Positions 35,014-45,717 of a DNA stretch of 64,000 nucleotides are shown here, piece after piece. The stretch comes from an uncultured Alphaproteobacteria bacterium (lineage in GTDB: Bacteria > Pseudomonadota > Alphaproteobacteria > RF32 > CAG-239). How positions within the stretch are numbered: the first letter of the stretch is position 1; every line of letters starts with the position of its first letter. The translations under genes and the position numbers were made by a program. A model generated the notes under the pieces. It searched no databases and was not told the DNA's origin. It saw nothing but the letters and a program-made list of their open reading frames with translations. Where the stretch lies: the NCBI GenBank assembly GCA_910585375.1, contig CAJUCZ010000005.1, forward strand, positions 11,380 through 75,379, given 5' to 3'.

Positions 35014-35733
35014 ATGACAAAAAGTGATTTAAGGATTGCAAAAATGAACAAAGAAATACGCTTAATTGCTTGTTTGGGCGTCTTATTGGCAACGACCGGA
35101 TGTTATATGTTCCGGCCTCTTAATTATAATTACGAAAAAGAGGAAACCGTTGCCGAAACCGTCATGACAACCTGTCCGGATGACGGCACGCCCTGCGTGG
35201 TTCCGCCGGCTGCTCCGCAAGAATATGTCGATTATACCCGAACCGCCGCAGATTATCGCGAGTACGGCGAGAGAACGCCGCGCGACCAGCGTATCGTTCA
35301 GACGGCTCCGGGCAGTAATATGTCTGCCGCAATCCCGCCGACAATTGACGAAGAAGTAGGCGCTTATGAAGAAGAAATCAAATCTACCGGCAGTGCGGAA
35401 TTTGCCGAAAATGCCGGTACTGACAGCGCCGGAAGCGGTGCCGGCAGCGATGACGGCGATGATCCGGTCAAAGACTGGCTGGCCGAAGAAGGGCAGTCGT
35501 TGAAAGCCCTCCTGACAGAATGGAGCGATGAATCCGGCTGGCGTCTGATTTGGAACAGCAACAGAAATTACACTTTAAGTGCGGGCGCAATGTTTCGCGG
35601 GCGTTTTGCCGATGTCAGCGCCGCATTGATCCGCGCTTTCGGCCGTGCAAGCCCTGCTCCGGTCGCCACTTTTTATAAAGGAAACCGCGTCTTGGTTGTA
35701 GAAACGATGGAGGATGAGAATGCATTTGATTAA
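35014..35733 (+). CDS. Lipoprotein (239 aa), PilL/pilotin-like by position
   Basis: Lipobox (LLATTGC); sits immediately upstream of the secretin as pilL does in the R64 thin-pilus locus. Confidence 0.45.
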   Translation: MTKSDLRIAKMNKEIRLIACLGVLLATTGCYMFRPLNYNYEKEETVAETVMTTCPDDGTPCVVPPAAPQEYVDYTRTAADYREYGERTPRDQRIVQTAPGSNMSAAIPPTIDEEVGAYEEEIKSTGSAEFAENAGTDSAGSGAGSDDGDDPVKDWLAEEGQSLKALLTEWSDESGWRLIWNSNRNYTLSAGAMFRGRFADVSAALIRAFGRASPAPVATFYKGNRVLVVETMEDENAFD

Positions 35734-37336
35734 AAATAAGAAATTCGGCATTGTATTGGCATTTGCCGCTTTGGTGGCCTCATGCTCCATGTCAACCAGT
35801 CTGGACGCGACGATTGAGCGCGAAGTTGAAGCCTCGACCAAGATGAAAGAAATGGCTAAGGCTCCGACACCTATCGAAAATACCGATCTGGTTAAGGTCA
35901 AAAATGACATCTGGCTCGGCGATACAAGCGAGATCGAGTATGAAGGCCAGCCGGTTCCGGCTTATCTGGAAACGGCTGACGGCGTAACCTTAATCAGCAA
36001 TCGTCCGATTACATTGTTTGAAATCGGTGATATGCTTAACAAAGTTACTTCTTTGCGCGTTCGCTTTGACAGCAATCTGGAAAAAGACATTCGGGAAAAA
36101 GGATCAAAAAACAAGCCGTCGGCAGCAGCGATTAATGCCGACTGGACAGATGCCGACAAAATGCTGGTTTCTTACCGCGGGCCGTTGAGCGGTTTGCTGG
36201 ACGAGATTTCTTCCCGTTTCGGCATTTGGTGGAAGTATGACAAGAAAGAAATTCACTTCTACAAATACATTACCAAGACTTTTGTTTTGTATTCTTTGCC
36301 GACCAAACCGAAGCTTAATGTAACCGTTGGCGGATCTTCTTCTGCCGGCGAAGGCGGAAGCTCTTCCCTGAGCCTGAGTTCCGAGGCGGAAATTGCTGTC
36401 TGGACGCAGATTAAAGATTCAATTACGTCTATGATTTCAAAAGATTCAAAATTGACGATTGATCAGGGTAACGGTACGATTACCCTGACGGCCACTCCGA
36501 CAGACATCAAAAAAGTCGGCCGTTACATCACAGAACAGAACAACCGCTTATCCAGACAAGTGGCCATCAGCGTAAAAGTTTTGCAGGTAACCGTAACAGA
36601 CGGTGACCAGTATGGTTTGAATTTGTCTGCGATGTTTAACGACGGGCACACGACTTTTCGTCTGGCCAGCCCGACCGGCGGCGTGGCCGATGACATTGCC
36701 GACAATCTGACGATGGCTATCACCCCGAAGAACTGGACAGGAAGCGCCATTGTCAAAGCGTTGTCCAGCCAGGGAGCGACAACTCTGGTAACCAGCGGTA
36801 CGGTAACAACATTAAATAATAAACCGGCACCTATTCAGGTTATTAAAAAGCAAAACTATATTTCTGAAATTACCAAAACCAACGGTGGTGACAACGACTA
36901 TGATATTTCAACCGAGACGGAAGAAATCGAAACAGGTTTTACGCTGGACGTTTTGCCGAGAATTTTGGAACACGGGCGGTTGCTTTTGATGTTTAATCTG
37001 ACATTGTCCGATTTGATTGAGTTGGAAAAAGTATATTTGAATGAACCGACAGAAGGAACGCCTTCATCCGCTTCCGGCCAGTATATTCAAAACCCGAAGA
37101 TTGAATCCCGCGGCTTTACACAAGAAGTTGCAATGTCTTCCGGTGAATCTTTGATTTTGACCGGTTATGAAAGAGTTGAAAACACAACCTCAAAAGAAGG
37201 TATCGGATCAGCGACGAACTCGTTGCTGGGAGGTTCAGCTACAGCTAATAAAGAAAGAAGCGTATTGGTCATTATTCTGACGCCGGTTGTTCTTGAATCT
37301 CCGCTGACGCCGGAATCCAGAATGGTTCTGAATTAA
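35714..37336 (+). CDS. Lipoprotein secretin (PilN/BfpB/TcpC-like, 540 aa)
   Basis: Lipobox (LVASC). Secretin domain (RQVAISVKVLQVTVTDGDQYGLN...; GFTLDVLPRILEHGRLLLMFNLTLSDL; ...GESLILTGYER...SATNSLLGGSATANKERSVLVIILTPVVL). Confidence 0.8.
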   Translation: MRMHLIKNKKFGIVLAFAALVASCSMSTSLDATIEREVEASTKMKEMAKAPTPIENTDLVKVKNDIWLGDTSEIEYEGQPVPAYLETADGVTLISNRPITLFEIGDMLNKVTSLRVRFDSNLEKDIREKGSKNKPSAAAINADWTDADKMLVSYRGPLSGLLDEISSRFGIWWKYDKKEIHFYKYITKTFVLYSLPTKPKLNVTVGGSSSAGEGGSSSLSLSSEAEIAVWTQIKDSITSMISKDSKLTIDQGNGTITLTATPTDIKKVGRYITEQNNRLSRQVAISVKVLQVTVTDGDQYGLNLSAMFNDGHTTFRLASPTGGVADDIADNLTMAITPKNWTGSAIVKALSSQGATTLVTSGTVTTLNNKPAPIQVIKKQNYISEITKTNGGDNDYDISTETEEIETGFTLDVLPRILEHGRLLLMFNLTLSDLIELEKVYLNEPTEGTPSSASGQYIQNPKIESRGFTQEVAMSSGESLILTGYERVENTTSKEGIGSATNSLLGGSATANKERSVLVIILTPVVLESPLTPESRMVLN

Positions 37337-37359
37337 CCTTAAACGAAGGGTAAATTACA

Positions 37360-44822: not shown

Positions 44823-44866
44823 CAAAAGCGCTTTGGCAGAAAACCAAAGCGCTTTTGTTGTTTTAT
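44823..44866 (+). terminator. Rho-independent terminator (AAAGCGCTTTGG-loop-CCAAAGCGCTTT followed by a T-rich tail)
   Basis: 12-bp inverted repeat followed by TGTTGTTTTATGTTT. Confidence 0.55.
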
Positions 44867-45090
44867 GTTTCCGAGACTTTTTGTTCTATAGTCATCCCCT
44901 GGAATGACTATATAGACAGCCTGAAAATAACTATAAAGCAGAGAAGATAACAAAGAGAAAAAAGAGGAAAGTAAAAACGTTTAATTATATAAAATGCAAT
45001 TTTATTATTTTTGTAAAATATATTTTACACTTTTAAATATGACAAAGTTGCTAATGTTCTTAACTTGAAAGTTACCATTACATTATATAG

Positions 45091-45717
45091 TTGGAAGAAA
45101 CAGACAGCATTGCCAACAACAAAACGGAGAAGAAGATGAGAAAGAAAGGTTATTTTGCTGACAAAAAGCACAGGCTGATTGCCGAACTGGTCGGGATTCC
45201 GGTTTTGGCGCTGGTAATTTATCTTATGATTTCTTCTTCGTTCAACAGTTCTGCCGAAAAGTTCAAGTTGTCAAAAGCCATTGAGAACTTGCAAACATTG
45301 AGCAACAATATTCACACGGCTTATGCCGCCACACCGGACTATTCCGGCATGGATATTGATTCTTTACGGGCGACAGCCCTAATTCCGGCCGATATGCTCG
45401 ACAAAGACGGCAACGTGACAAATTCTTACGGCGGTTCGGTCTTTATTGCGCCTACAAAATACCTGAATGTGGATAACGGCGCTTTTGCAATTATTTATAA
45501 CGGACTGAGCAAGAAAGGCTGCGTTTCTTTGTTGTCTACGCCGTTTCAACTGGCAGGTATTGCCGGTGTGGACATCAAGCCGATTGAAACAGACATTCCG
45601 CAGACGGCAGAAACTAAATTTGACAAGTCCGCCCTGCCGATGTCAGAGGAACTGGCAAACACGCTCTGCGAGGCAGAAAACGACCCTACCAACGCCATCA
45701 TCTGGATGTTTTATTAG
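45091..45717 (+). CDS. Pilin-like paralog C (208 aa)
   Basis: Hydrophobic helix (LIAELVGIPVLALVIYLMI) and C-terminal domain with IIYNGLSKKGCVS, as in paralogs A and B. Confidence 0.5.
   Translation: MEETDSIANNKTEKKMRKKGYFADKKHRLIAELVGIPVLALVIYLMISSSFNSSAEKFKLSKAIENLQTLSNNIHTAYAATPDYSGMDIDSLRATALIPADMLDKDGNVTNSYGGSVFIAPTKYLNVDNGAFAIIYNGLSKKGCVSLLSTPFQLAGIAGVDIKPIETDIPQTAETKFDKSALPMSEELANTLCEAENDPTNAIIWMFY

What the first reader, a model, noticed from the sequence alone, without database searches (positions are those of the whole stretch)
35014..45717. R64 thin-pilus-like type IVb pilus operon (pilL to pilS synteny) fused back-to-back with the VirB cluster
The gene order lipoprotein, lipoprotein secretin, bitopic protein, periplasmic protein, GspE-like ATPase, GspF-like platform protein and prepilins reproduces pilL-pilM/N-pilO-pilP-pilQ-pilR-pilS of the IncI1 thin pilus, which stabilises mating pairs in liquid. 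In IncI plasmids it partners a Dot/Icm-type (IVB) secretion system. Here it is paired with a VirB-type (IVA) system in a chromosome-like context. This combination, possibly serving conjugation or host adhesion in an intracellular bacterium, is unusual.
Basis: partly seen in the sequence, partly recalled or inferred. Interest (0 to 1): 0.7.

Follow-up and report, generated by a model that had tools for sequence, protein, structure and literature searches.

The report
Bundle-forming-type pilus beside VirB secretion system
An uncultured gut alphaproteobacterium carries, on its chromosome near the replication origin, a complete and retractable type IVb pilus gene cluster that is closer to the E. 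coli bundle-forming pilus than to the R64 plasmid pilus. It sits next to an expanded VirB-type secretion system in more than 50 related species, which suggests the two work together.

Summary
Window 33268-46681 encodes a complete type IVb pilus (T4bP) machine.

The R64 label is only partly right. Five of the six shared components tested score about twice as high against BFP-type systems as against IncI Pil proteins; the secretin is a tie. PilM, PilT, PilU, PilV and a shufflon are absent.

The host is an uncultured animal-gut alphaproteobacterium, and nothing suggests it is intracellular. The cluster is chromosomal, with dnaA about 12 kb beyond the window.

Pairing a T4bP with a VirB-type system is not new: IncI2 plasmids have it. 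Three things are new:
- The linkage is chromosomal and apparently vertically inherited, and is kept in at least three gene arrangements in 52 of 53 species where it could be assessed.
- The partner is an expanded VirB system (VirB2 x3, VirB8 x2, four VirB6-like genes), with no relaxase or coupling protein nearby.
- There are clade-specific parts.

Most likely the pilus is a retractile grappling device that serves contact-dependent type IV secretion. That step is inferred, not shown.

The parts
33031..33077 (.). Conserved non-coding blocks in the divergent intergenic region, on the virB2 side (TAACATATTGTTTAC and GTAACAAAAAATTCA)
   Evidence: The GTAACAAAAAATTCA block occurs once per locus in 47 of 63 sequences, and only in loci with the divergent VirB2/pilus arrangement.
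33219..33247 (+). Promoter-like element of the pilus operon (TTGCCA, 17 nt, TATCTA), followed by an AAAGGG ribosome-binding site and the ATG at 33268
   Evidence: The 27-nt block occurs once per locus, directly upstream of the first pilus gene, in 49 of 63 sequences. This includes loci with the tandem arrangement.
33268..34956 (+). First operon gene ('u612'; the ORF as listed starts at 33118). It is a bitopic membrane protein with a long low-complexity linker and a C-terminal OmpA/Pal/MotB-like domain, probably a peptidoglycan anchor.
35014..35733 (+). TcpQ-domain lipoprotein (counterpart of PilL, BfpG and TcpQ), the likely partner of the secretin
   Evidence: PF10671, 2.3e-15. Bit scores: Bosea 79, BfpG 71, IncI2 PilL 41, IncI-gamma PilL 35.
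35714..37336 (+). Lipoprotein secretin (PilN/BfpB family), the outer-membrane channel
   Evidence: TIGR02520 at 269 bits; PF00263. The only PDB match is BfpB 9u5s, 8.3e-51. Lipobox LVASC.
37360..38634 (+). PilO/BfpC-type bitopic inner-membrane protein, a hallmark accessory of type IVb pili
   Evidence: PF06864, 1.7e-14, across the whole length. One central transmembrane segment. Bit scores: Bosea PilO2 103, BfpC 52, no BLAST hit to IncI PilO.
38609..40267 (+). Long PilP/BfpU homologue. It has a signal peptide, a 35-aa PKTG-rich tandem repeat (38858-39196), a coiled coil and a C-terminal PilP domain.
   Evidence: TIGR03021 at 31.7 bits, below the 34.65 cutoff. hhalign against IncI PilP, BfpU and Bosea gives probability 95%, E 4e-8. 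The repeat has a 105-bp period and 3.2 copies.
40277..41950 (+). Pilus extension ATPase (counterpart of BfpD and R64 PilQ)
   Evidence: PF00437, 3e-68. 36-38% identical to BfpD, Bosea and Methylorubrum versus 30% to IncI PilQ. It groups with BfpD and Bosea in the NJ tree at 94/100.
41969..43093 (+). Inner-membrane platform protein (counterpart of BfpE, PilR and GspF)
   Evidence: PF00482, 2.5e-24. Bit scores: BfpE 195 versus IncI PilR 107-136.
43474..44034 (+). S1, a pilin paralogue whose class III signal is replaced by a plain membrane anchor (no Gly at -1, no Glu5). It is present in 58 of 62 loci.
   Evidence: Its globular domain matches the S2 pilins by hhalign with probability 99.8%, E 1.7e-27. 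N-termini were compared.
44207..44803 (+). S2, the likely major prepilin. It has an 11-aa leader, the cleavage motif G|RSMVEMLGVLAIIGVL, and a bundlin/TcpA-like head with two Cys.
   Evidence: PF08805 at 1.6e-10 and PF05307 at 5.7e-9. The best PDB match is bundlin 1zwt, 3.2e-6. Relatives carry 1-4 tandem copies with an invariant N-terminus. It has the highest dN/dS in the cluster, 0.22-0.30.
44821..44859 (+). Strong terminator-like hairpin directly after the major pilin gene
   Evidence: A 16-bp stem plus a T run. Free energy -27.3 kcal/mol, z-score -4.6.
45091..45717 (+). S3, a second pilin-domain paralogue with His instead of Gly at the -1 position. It is found only in the window's closest relatives.
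   Evidence: PF08805 at 8.3e-14. N-terminus KKH|RLIAELVG; distribution.
45719..46681 (-). PilT/BfpF-type retraction ATPase. It is convergent here, but lies on the same strand directly after the pilin genes in most relatives.
   Evidence: TIGR01420 PilT family at 113 bits, versus VirB11 at 51 bits. 149 bits to BfpF. It groups with BfpF in the tree. It is on the plus strand in 34 loci and the minus strand in 7.
31416..32957 (-). Three VirB2/TrbC pilin paralogues, the first genes of the divergent type IV secretion operon
   Evidence: PF04956 matches in all three. Orthologues lie divergently upstream of the pilus operon in 48 of 53 assessable loci.
7385..31222 (-). The rest of the VirB-type cluster. 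Reading down the minus strand from 31222 to 7385: a 243-aa protein, VirB3, VirB4, secreted proteins of 503, 240, 380 and 1414 aa, VirB8, a small VirB7-like ORF, VirB8, VirB9, a 1053-aa beta-flower protein, a 1541-aa VirB10 and VirB11.
   Evidence: Pfam and NCBIfam matches. The core gene order matches the Microvirga plasmid T4SS, at 26-41% identity.

Best explanation
Window 33268-46681 encodes a functional, retractable type IVb pilus of the bundle-forming-pilus (BFP) subtype, in the chromosome of an uncultured gut alphaproteobacterium.

Proposed assembly:
- The lipoprotein secretin and its TcpQ-domain partner form the outer-membrane channel.
- The PilO/BfpC-like and PilP/BfpU-like proteins connect the channel to the inner-membrane platform.
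- The hexameric extension ATPase polymerises the S2 pilin once an unlinked prepilin peptidase has cleaved it at G|RSMVE.
- The PilT/BfpF-like ATPase retracts the fibre.
- A clade-specific first gene anchors the machine to peptidoglycan through an OmpA-like domain.

The pilus operon is kept next to an expanded VirB-type secretion system in almost every relative, in at least three different gene arrangements. Its most likely job is therefore to catch and pull in a target cell, or hold onto it, so that the VirB channel can deliver its substrates. This is the same logic as mating-pair stabilisation by the IncI, IncI2 and PAPI-1 pili, but here it serves a resident, apparently non-conjugative secretion system.

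What is shown: the identity of the parts, their conservation, purifying selection and the linkage. What is inferred: pilus assembly, retraction, and cooperation with the VirB system.
For: - Part identities.
- BFP-type affinity: reciprocal bit scores about twofold higher than against IncI for five of six shared components. In the ATPase NJ tree the gut Alphaproteobacteria group with Bosea, BfpD and the E. coli BFP-like cluster at 94/100.
- Retraction ATPase: PilT family at 113 bits, BfpF at 149 bits, and directly after the pilin genes on the same strand in 34 relatives.
- Functional constraint: intact orthologues in 62 species, with dN/dS 0.02-0.07 for the machinery and 0.22-0.30 for the S2 pilin.
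- Linkage to VirB: of 53 loci where upstream DNA is available, 48 have the divergent VirB2 arrangement and 4 have VirB3-VirB4 following S1 on the same strand after about 90 bp.
- Linkage persists further out: two more distant Alphaproteobacteria (PilQ 67-68%, VirB4 58-62% identical) keep VirB3-VirB4 divergent from the pilus operon, while the other flanks are unrelated housekeeping genes.
- Precedent for T4bP plus T4SS cooperation: IncI2 pSH275-1 and the TP114 pilus paper (PMC9045228).
- OmpA-like anchor.
- Chromosomal setting: accA, rmuC, fpg, then rpsT-dnaA-dnaN-recF. There is no tRNA, the family scans of the window ORFs returned no integrase or recombinase, and GC content is uniform.
Against: - No prepilin peptidase was found in the 64-kb window, in the 10 kb on either side of it, or within 10 kb of the ATPase in 62 relatives. 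Processing therefore depends on a gene I could not locate.
- Adjacency alone does not prove cooperation. The two operons carry different conserved upstream blocks, and no shared operator was identified.
- Twelve relatives have no PilT-like gene within 10 kb, and the four tandem-arrangement genomes have no S2 pilin nearby.
- Related stand-alone pilus clusters without any VirB genes exist in other gut Alphaproteobacteria and on Bosea and Methylorubrum replicons. The pilus can evidently work without a T4SS.
- The VirB substrates and the target cell are unknown.
- Arg at the +1 position of the pilin is unusual.
Confidence: 0.6

Rival explanations
1. An autonomous colonisation pilus. Like BFP or TCP, it would mediate aggregation or attachment in the gut on its own. 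Its position next to the VirB cluster would be a historical leftover, for example from an ancestral mobile element that carried both, with no functional coupling.
For: The closest characterised relatives, BFP and TCP, are adhesion and aggregation pili. Stand-alone versions of the same pilus core occur among housekeeping genes in L184 and L188, and on Bosea and Methylorubrum replicons without VirB genes. The two operons have different conserved upstream motifs.
Against: The linkage survives in at least three arrangements (divergent to VirB2, divergent to VirB3-VirB4, and tandem S1 to VirB3) while all other flanking genes change. The u612 anchor gene and the long PilP form are seen only in the T4SS-linked versions, although the sample is small.
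Confidence: 0.25
2. One reading: an R64-type conjugative thin pilus that stabilises mating pairs for DNA transfer by the adjacent VirB system, that is, an integrated conjugative element.
For: The core order matches pilL-N-O-P-Q-R-S, with the pilin gene after the platform gene as in R64. The VirB core is most similar to a Microvirga plasmid conjugation cluster that has a relaxase and VirD4. IncI2 plasmids combine both systems for conjugation.
Against: No relaxase or VirD4 homologue lies in the window, in the 10 kb upstream of it, or in the 62 loci. PilM, PilT, PilU, PilV, a shufflon and a recombinase are all absent. The components are closer to BFP than to IncI Pil. There is no tRNA, the family scans of the window ORFs returned no integrase, and there is no GC shift. 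The island lies about 30 kb from dnaA and is present in essentially every species of the clade sampled, with divergence that tracks species distance.
Confidence: 0.1
3. The machine acts mainly as a secretion or DNA-uptake device. It would export a soluble colonisation factor, as TCP does with TcpF, or take up DNA, rather than act as a grappling fibre.
For: From general knowledge, some type IVb systems secrete proteins (TcpF, CofJ), and type IV filaments mediate DNA uptake (Denise et al. 2019, PMC6668835).
Against: No candidate secreted partner gene or competence gene (ComEA, ComEC) was seen in the cluster. A dedicated retraction ATPase and multiple fast-evolving major-pilin copies fit a surface fibre better.
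Confidence: 0.05

Closest known systems
Bundle-forming pilus (BFP) of enteropathogenic E. coli (bfpA-G-B-C-U-D-E-F-P-H-I-J-K-L, plasmid pMAR2)
   Same: The core order is the same: BfpG-like, BfpB-like lipoprotein secretin, BfpC-like, BfpU-like, BfpD-like ATPase, BfpE-like platform. A BfpF-like retraction ATPase and a bundlin-like pilin are present. BFP gives the best or near-best characterised match for every shared part.
   Different: Identity is only 23-39%. The pilin genes follow the platform gene instead of leading the operon. There is no in-cluster peptidase (BfpP), transglycosylase (BfpH), minor pilins BfpI/J/K, or BfpL. Extra features are the OmpA-like anchor gene, a PilP homologue three times longer, and an uncleavable pilin paralogue. 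It is chromosomal and linked to a VirB system.
R64/IncI1 thin pilus (pilI-pilV)
   Same: It belongs to the same type IVb superfamily. The order L-N-O-P-Q-R-S is the same, with the pilin gene after the platform gene. The secretin matches the PilN-family model, and the pilus is associated with a type IV secretion system.
   Different: PilM, the PilT transglycosylase, the PilU peptidase, the PilV adhesin, the shufflon and Rci are all absent. R64 has no retraction ATPase. Bit scores to IncI proteins are about half those to BFP-type proteins. The R64 partner is a Dot/Icm-like (MPF_I) conjugation system on a plasmid.
IncI2 plasmids (R721, TP114, mcr-1 plasmids such as pSH275-1)
   Same: A type IVb pilus is physically interleaved with a VirB-type (MPF_T) secretion system. 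The pilus is important for T4SS-mediated transfer in the gut (PMC9045228).
   Different: The IncI2 pilus is R64-type, with PilV and a shufflon. The T4SS there is conjugative, with VirD4 and a MOBP relaxase, and sits on a 60-kb plasmid. Here the pilus is BFP-type, the locus is chromosomal, and no coupling protein or relaxase was found.
Alphaproteobacterial 'PilO2' pilus clusters (Bosea pANAM02, Methylorubrum extorquens AM1 megaplasmid)
   Same: These are the closest sequence relatives in the annotated collections. They share the order TcpQ, PilN, PilO2, x, ATPase, platform, PilT-like ATPase.
   Different: They have no VirB genes within 15-20 kb and no u612-type gene. They lie on large secondary replicons, and their function is uncharacterised.
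Rickettsiales vir homologue (rvh) type IV secretion systems
   Same: The neighbouring VirB system shows the same kind of gene-family expansion: three VirB2, two VirB8, and four tandem polytopic VirB6-like genes just upstream of the window. It is chromosomal and not obviously conjugative. The comparison with rvh rests on my own knowledge (Gillespie et al., Infect Immun 2010).
   Different: No direct sequence comparison with rvh proteins was possible here. The closest VirB4 in the searched collections comes from Microvirga, Erythrobacter and Sphingosinicella plasmids (35-39%). VirD4 does not follow VirB11 as it does in Rickettsiales. As far as I know, rvh systems are not described as paired with a type IVb pilus.

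Membership tests
Type IVb pilus (T4bP as defined by Denise et al. 2019, PMC6668835) | Extension ATPase of the PilB/BfpD/PilQ(R64) clade | tested here: met
   PF00437 at 3e-68. It falls inside the T4bP ATPase clade, separate from the PilB/GspE-like outgroups, at 85/100 bootstrap.
Type IVb pilus (T4bP as defined by Denise et al. 2019, PMC6668835) | GspF-family platform protein | tested here: met
   PF00482 at 2.5e-24; 195-208 bits to BfpE and the Bosea platform.
Type IVb pilus (T4bP as defined by Denise et al. 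2019, PMC6668835) | Secretin of the lipoprotein PilN/BfpB/TcpC type | tested here: met
   TIGR02520 at 269 bits (cutoff 287). The only PDB match is BfpB, 8.3e-51. A lipobox is present.
Type IVb pilus (T4bP as defined by Denise et al. 2019, PMC6668835) | Major pilin with a class III signal and a type IVb head domain | tested here: met
   S2 has G|RSMVE with Glu5, matches PilS and Bundlin in Pfam, and has bundlin as best PDB match. Its leader is short (11 aa) and has Arg at +1, which is atypical.
Type IVb pilus (T4bP as defined by Denise et al. 2019, PMC6668835) | Prepilin peptidase (mandatory, but allowed to be unlinked) | tested here: inconclusive
   No A24 peptidase was found by Pfam in the window ORFs or by tblastn with BfpP, PilU or an E. 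coli A24 protein in the window and 62 loci. None appeared among the genes called within 10 kb of either window end. The rest of the genome could not be searched.
Type IVb pilus (T4bP as defined by Denise et al. 2019, PMC6668835) | T4b-specific accessory proteins (PilO/BfpC, TcpQ/BfpG/PilL, PilP/BfpU) | tested here: met
   PF06864 at 1.7e-14; PF10671 at 2.3e-15; PilP profile match with probability 95%.
R64/IncI thin pilus | Closest homologues are the IncI Pil proteins | tested here: not met
   BFP-type references score about twofold higher for the ATPase, platform, PilO, TcpQ protein and pilin. Only the secretin is a tie.
R64/IncI thin pilus | PilM, PilT (lytic transglycosylase) and PilU (peptidase) in the operon | tested here: not met
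   No tblastn or Pfam hits in the window or the 62 loci.
R64/IncI thin pilus | PilV tip adhesin with a shufflon and Rci recombinase | tested here: not met
   There is no PilV homologue, and the family scans of the window ORFs returned no integrase or recombinase. Variation here comes from 1-4 tandem pilin paralogues instead.
R64/IncI thin pilus | Part of a conjugative element (relaxase, coupling protein) | tested here: not met
   No homologue of the Microvirga relaxase or VirD4 in the window or loci. None appeared among the genes called 10 kb upstream. The flanks are chromosomal and include dnaA. A location elsewhere in the genome is not excluded.
BFP-type pilus | G-B-C-U-D-E core order plus a BfpF retraction ATPase | tested here: met
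   Order. PilT-family ATPase at 149 bits to BfpF.
BFP-type pilus | BfpP, BfpH, minor pilins BfpI/J/K and BfpL in the operon; pilin gene first | tested here: not met
   No hits to any of these. The pilin genes follow the platform gene.
VirB/VirD4 (MPF_T) type IV secretion system (the neighbour) | VirB2, B3, B4, B6, B8, B9, B10 and B11 present | tested here: met
   Pfam and NCBIfam hits for all of them. The VirB6/TrbL-like genes lie just upstream of the window.
VirB/VirD4 (MPF_T) type IV secretion system (the neighbour) | VirD4 coupling protein | tested here: inconclusive
   Not found in the island or within 10 kb of it. The rest of the genome is not searchable with these tools.

The most novel reading that the evidence does not exclude
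The pilus and the expanded VirB system form one vertically inherited 'grapple-and-inject' organelle in a whole clade of uncultured gut Alphaproteobacteria with genomes of about 1.9 Mb (longest contig 1.95 Mb). The retractile BFP-type fibre would pull another cell, bacterial or host, onto a non-conjugative T4SS. The clade-specific parts would be adaptations that physically or functionally couple the two machines. These are the OmpA-like anchor, the long repeat-bearing PilP, the membrane-anchored pilin paralogue S1, and the giant beta-flower VirB10. That would point to an obligately contact-dependent lifestyle (epibiotic, predatory or host-attached) for a common but unstudied gut lineage.
Probability: 0.3. 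Interest if true: 0.75.

Novelty: new variant of a known kind. Interest (0 to 1): 0.5.

Why it matters
Type IVb pili are known mainly from gammaproteobacterial pathogens (BFP, TCP, CFA/III, longus) and from conjugative plasmids and islands. Here a complete BFP-type system with a retraction motor is a conserved chromosomal feature of a widespread, uncultured alphaproteobacterial lineage of animal and human guts.

It is locked to an expanded VirB secretion system through several genome rearrangements. If the two cooperate, the principle of a pilus bringing the target to the secretion channel would extend from plasmid conjugation to a resident secretion system. It would also give a concrete hypothesis for how these unstudied gut bacteria interact with other cells.

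The finding also adds new accessory parts to the T4bP inventory: an OmpA-like anchor and an uncleavable, membrane-anchored pilin paralogue. I found no description of this system in the searchable literature.

Tried and rejected
- Tad/Flp or type II secretion identity: rejected. The secretin, PilO, TcpQ, PilP and pilin models are all T4b-specific, and the ATPase lies in the T4bP clade.
- The second small ATPase (45719-46681) as a second VirB11: rejected. PilT family at 113 bits versus VirB11 at 51, and it clusters with BfpF. The true VirB11 is at 7385-8353.
- The 1414-aa protein as VirB6: rejected. It has a signal peptide and no transmembrane segments. The VirB6-like genes are upstream of the window.
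- Sequence-based identification of u612: nothing significant in Pfam, NCBIfam or PDB profile searches. Only the predicted fold gave an answer.
It was redone with database homologues.
- Locus search with a PilO alignment that included BFP and Bosea was too divergent. The narrower alignment found only the same gut lineage in metagenomes.
- Search for a prepilin peptidase, transglycosylase, PilM, PilV and BfpI/J/K/L in the window and 62 loci: negative.
- Search for a relaxase or VirD4: negative.
- tRNA genes: none. Rfam families: none.
- A shared operator for both operons: not established. The conserved blocks segregate with one operon or the other.
- Literature searches for the host lineage together with secretion or pilus terms found nothing relevant.
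- Context of the Ca. Paracaedimonas plasmid T4SS: no pilus genes there.

Full report
**What is there.** Family searches identify them as follows:
- 35014-35733: a TcpQ-domain lipoprotein.
- 35714-37336: a lipoprotein secretin that nearly reaches the curated PilN-family model (TIGR02520, 269 versus 287 bits).
- 37360-38634: a full-length PAP_PilO protein.
- 40277-41950: a T2SSE ATPase.
- 41969-43093: a T2SSF platform protein.
- 43474-44034, 44207-44803 and 45091-45717: three proteins with PilS/Bundlin pilin domains.

The 552-aa protein at 38609-40267 had only a sub-threshold PilP hit. A profile of its C-terminal domain aligns with IncI PilP, BfpU and their Bosea and E. coli counterparts at 95% probability, E 4e-8.

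The first is the leading gene of the operon (ORF 33118-34956, true start almost certainly 33268). It follows a promoter-like block and a ribosome-binding site that are conserved across genera. The second is a convergent 320-aa ATPase at 45719-46681. It is a PilT-family protein, not a VirB11: TIGR01420 at 113 bits versus VirB11 at 51, and 149 bits to the BFP retraction ATPase BfpF. In 34 relatives this gene sits on the same strand directly after the pilin genes. It is inverted in 7, including the window's nearest relatives.

**Which kind of type IVb pilus.** I fetched annotated reference clusters: IncI-gamma pilI-pilV, IncI2, EPEC bfp, an E. coli BFP-like cluster and Bosea pANAM02. Each window protein was then compared with them by BLAST.

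| Component | BFP-type references (bits) | IncI references (bits) |
|---|---|---|
| ATPase | 303-327 | 167-169 |
| Platform | 192-208 | 107-136 |
| PilO | 52-103 | no hit |
| TcpQ protein | 57-79 | 35-41 |
| S2 pilin | matches BfpA | no PilS hit |
| Secretin | 168-218 | 164-172 |

Only the secretin is roughly equal. Against solved structures, the secretin's only match is BfpB (8e-51), and the pilin's best match is bundlin, then TcpA. In a neighbour-joining tree of the ATPases, the gut sequences group with BfpD, the E. coli BFP-like protein and Bosea at 94/100. IncI PilQ is sister to that group at 85/100, and the PilB/GspE-like outgroups fall outside. The small ATPase groups with BfpF.

PilM, the PilT transglycosylase, the PilU peptidase, PilV, BfpP, BfpH, BfpI/J/K and BfpL have no detectable homologue in the window or in 62 related loci. 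So this is a type IVb pilus whose nearest characterised relative is BFP. It keeps the R64-like feature that the pilin genes follow the platform gene.

**Pilin genes.** S2-type genes occur in 1-4 tandem copies per genome. They have an almost invariant N-terminus...EQSG|RSMVEMLGVLAIIGVLSVGG: a short leader, Gly at -1, Arg at +1 and Glu5. In the window, S2 is followed by a strong terminator hairpin and evolves fastest in the cluster (dN/dS 0.22-0.30). All of this fits a major, surface-exposed pilin.

S1 is present in 58 of 62 loci directly after the platform gene. Its globular domain is clearly homologous to S2 (hhalign 99.8%, E 1.7e-27). Its N-terminus, however, is just a variable membrane anchor without Gly at -1 or Glu5, so it cannot be processed or polymerised in the usual way. 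S3 has His at -1 and is found only in the window's close relatives.

**Host and genomic setting.** The ATPase is identical or 98% identical to proteins of gut-metagenome MAGs labelled Alphaproteobacteria. A scan of one genome per species found orthologues at 66-98% identity in 62 MAGs from human, deer, chicken, mouse, rabbit and other guts. These include Proteobacteria bacterium CAG:495 and Candidatus Scatocola.

The flanks are housekeeping genes: an ABC transporter, accA, rmuC, tsaB, fpg and an enoyl-CoA hydratase. About 12 kb beyond the window end lie rpsT-dnaA-dnaN-recF. There is no tRNA, the family scans of the window ORFs returned no integrase or recombinase, and there is no GC discontinuity. 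This is chromosome near the origin, not a plasmid or an evident island. Nothing indicates an intracellular lifestyle.

**The VirB neighbour.** Pfam and NCBIfam identify, on the minus strand, VirB2 x3, VirB3, VirB4, VirB8 x2, VirB9, VirB10 and VirB11. VirB10 is 1541 aa and carries beta-flower repeats. A 1053-aa beta-flower protein sits between VirB9 and VirB10. Several secreted coiled-coil proteins occupy the place of VirB5.

Just upstream of the window lie four tandem polytopic proteins and an HTH regulator. One of the four matches TrbL/VirB6 and is fused to an M23 peptidase. The counterpart of another gave a weak TrbL hit.

The core order and sequences resemble a Microvirga plasmid conjugation cluster (VirB4 39% identical). 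That cluster's relaxase and VirD4 have no homologue here or in any related locus. The system looks like an expanded, resident T4SS, reminiscent of the Rickettsiales rvh systems. That comparison rests on my own knowledge and was not tested here.

**Is the pairing meaningful, and is it new?** It is not unprecedented. IncI2 plasmid pSH275-1 is typed MPF_T and interleaves VirB3/4/9/10/11/D4 with PilL-M and PilN-V. The IncI2 pilus is reported as important for transfer in the gut (PMC9045228).

What stands out here is the persistence of the linkage on a chromosome. Of 53 loci with enough upstream sequence:
- 48 have VirB2 genes divergent from the pilus operon.
- 4 have a different arrangement, in which VirB3-VirB4 follow S1 on the same strand after about 90 bp, with housekeeping genes upstream of the pilus operon.
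- 1 shows no T4SS gene.

An exhaustive PilO search found further alphaproteobacterial relatives. Two of them (PilQ 67-68%, VirB4 58-62% identical) again have VirB(2)-3-4 divergent from a u612-like gene followed by TcpQ, secretin, PilO, PilP, ATPase and platform. Two others are stand-alone pilus cores among housekeeping genes. These two lack both the u612 gene and the long PilP form. The Bosea and Methylorubrum clusters also lack nearby VirB genes.

All pilus genes are under purifying selection (dN/dS 0.02-0.30). Linkage that survives rearrangement while other flanks turn over argues for selection on proximity, that is, co-regulation or co-function. That remains an inference.

**Mechanism proposed.**
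- Shown: the parts list, their conservation and the linkage.
- Inferred from the homologous BFP, TCP and R64 systems: the secretin with its TcpQ partner forms the outer-membrane channel (BfpB-BfpG structure, PMC12531336). PilO and PilP bridge to the platform and the ATPase. S2 is cleaved by an unlinked peptidase and polymerised. The PilT-like ATPase retracts the fibre.
- Inferred from linkage and from the IncI, IncI2 and PAPI-1 precedent: the fibre brings or holds a target cell at the VirB channel.

The main weaknesses are the unlocated prepilin peptidase, the unknown T4SS substrates and target, and the existence of stand-alone relatives.

Noticed in passing
window 38858-39196 (inside the PilP-like gene): A 105-bp tandem repeat of 3.2 copies encodes a PKTG-rich 35-aa unit. 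Among strains whose ATPase is identical, the gene product varies from 346 to 547 aa, and it ranges from 388 to 579 aa across species. This looks like a length-variable periplasmic spacer.
   Followed up: partly
window 8365-16160 (minus strand): VirB10 is 1541 aa, with about 8 'beta-flower' (PF21785) and DUF3659 repeats ahead of its TrbI domain. A separate 1053-aa membrane-anchored protein with 7 such repeats sits between VirB9 and VirB10. VirB9 is also extended, to 565 aa. These are unusual decorations for a VirB core complex.
   Followed up: no
L178 60-8750 (the 10 kb upstream of window position 1): Four tandem polytopic proteins of 887, 433, 614 and 955 aa, each with 7-8 predicted transmembrane segments. 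The last matches TrbL/VirB6 and is fused to an M23 peptidase; the counterpart of the 614-aa protein gave a weak TrbL hit. A double-HTH regulator follows. Together with VirB2 x3 and VirB8 x2, this is a paralogue expansion like that of Rickettsiales rvh systems.
   Followed up: partly
window 338-6565 (plus strand): Four genes of unknown function lie between the VirB6 array and VirB11. One is a 1146-aa protein with repeated roughly 45-aa units (ADEEFAQTLA.SFAKALQFSD.NKKEDIKELIAAIRESK). The others are a 217-aa protein, a 418-aa lipoprotein and a 269-aa membrane protein. They may be T4SS substrates or accessories.
   Followed up: no
window 19729-27319 (minus strand): Secreted proteins of 1414, 380, 240 and 503 aa, each with a signal peptide and no family match, occupy the position where VirB5/VirB6 would be in a canonical operon. 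The 503-aa protein contains an internal duplication.
   Followed up: no
window 18624-18755 (minus strand): A small unannotated ORF between the two VirB8 genes resembles a 58-aa protein at the same position in the Microvirga plasmid T4SS (39% identity, 3.6e-7). It may be a VirB7-like lipoprotein.
   Followed up: no
window 33031-33077 and 33120-33135: The blocks GTAACAAAAAATTCA and TAACATATTGTTTAC are conserved across genera in the divergent intergenic region, and a similar GTTACAAAAAATC copy lies nearby. They are found only where VirB2 is divergent from the pilus operon. They could be an operator or promoter of the VirB operon, perhaps bound by the upstream HTH regulator.
   Followed up: partly
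L046, L050, L053, L056 (about 12.7-16.2 kb): In one subclade the pilus operon runs directly into VirB3-VirB4 on the same strand. In these genomes no S2-type pilin and no PilT-like gene lies within 10 kb, so both must be elsewhere or lost.
   Followed up: partly
L184 and L188: Other gut Alphaproteobacteria carry a stand-alone TcpQ, secretin, PilO, short PilP, ATPase and platform core between housekeeping genes. They have no adjacent pilin gene, no u612 and no T4SS. The u612 gene and the long PilP form seem to co-vary with T4SS linkage, but the sample is small.
   Followed up: partly
P0190 (Chitinophaga nivalis, 4832 aa): A giant protein with a gliding-motility-associated C-terminal domain matches residues 11-113 of PilO in 28 separate stretches. 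The PilO N-terminal domain fold apparently recurs as a repeat in a Bacteroidota surface protein.
   Followed up: no
L095/L096 10876-16007 (about 12 kb beyond the window end): rpsT-dnaA-dnaN-recF lie there. The whole secretion and pilus island, about 56 kb, therefore lies within about 30 kb of the probable chromosomal replication origin.
   Followed up: no
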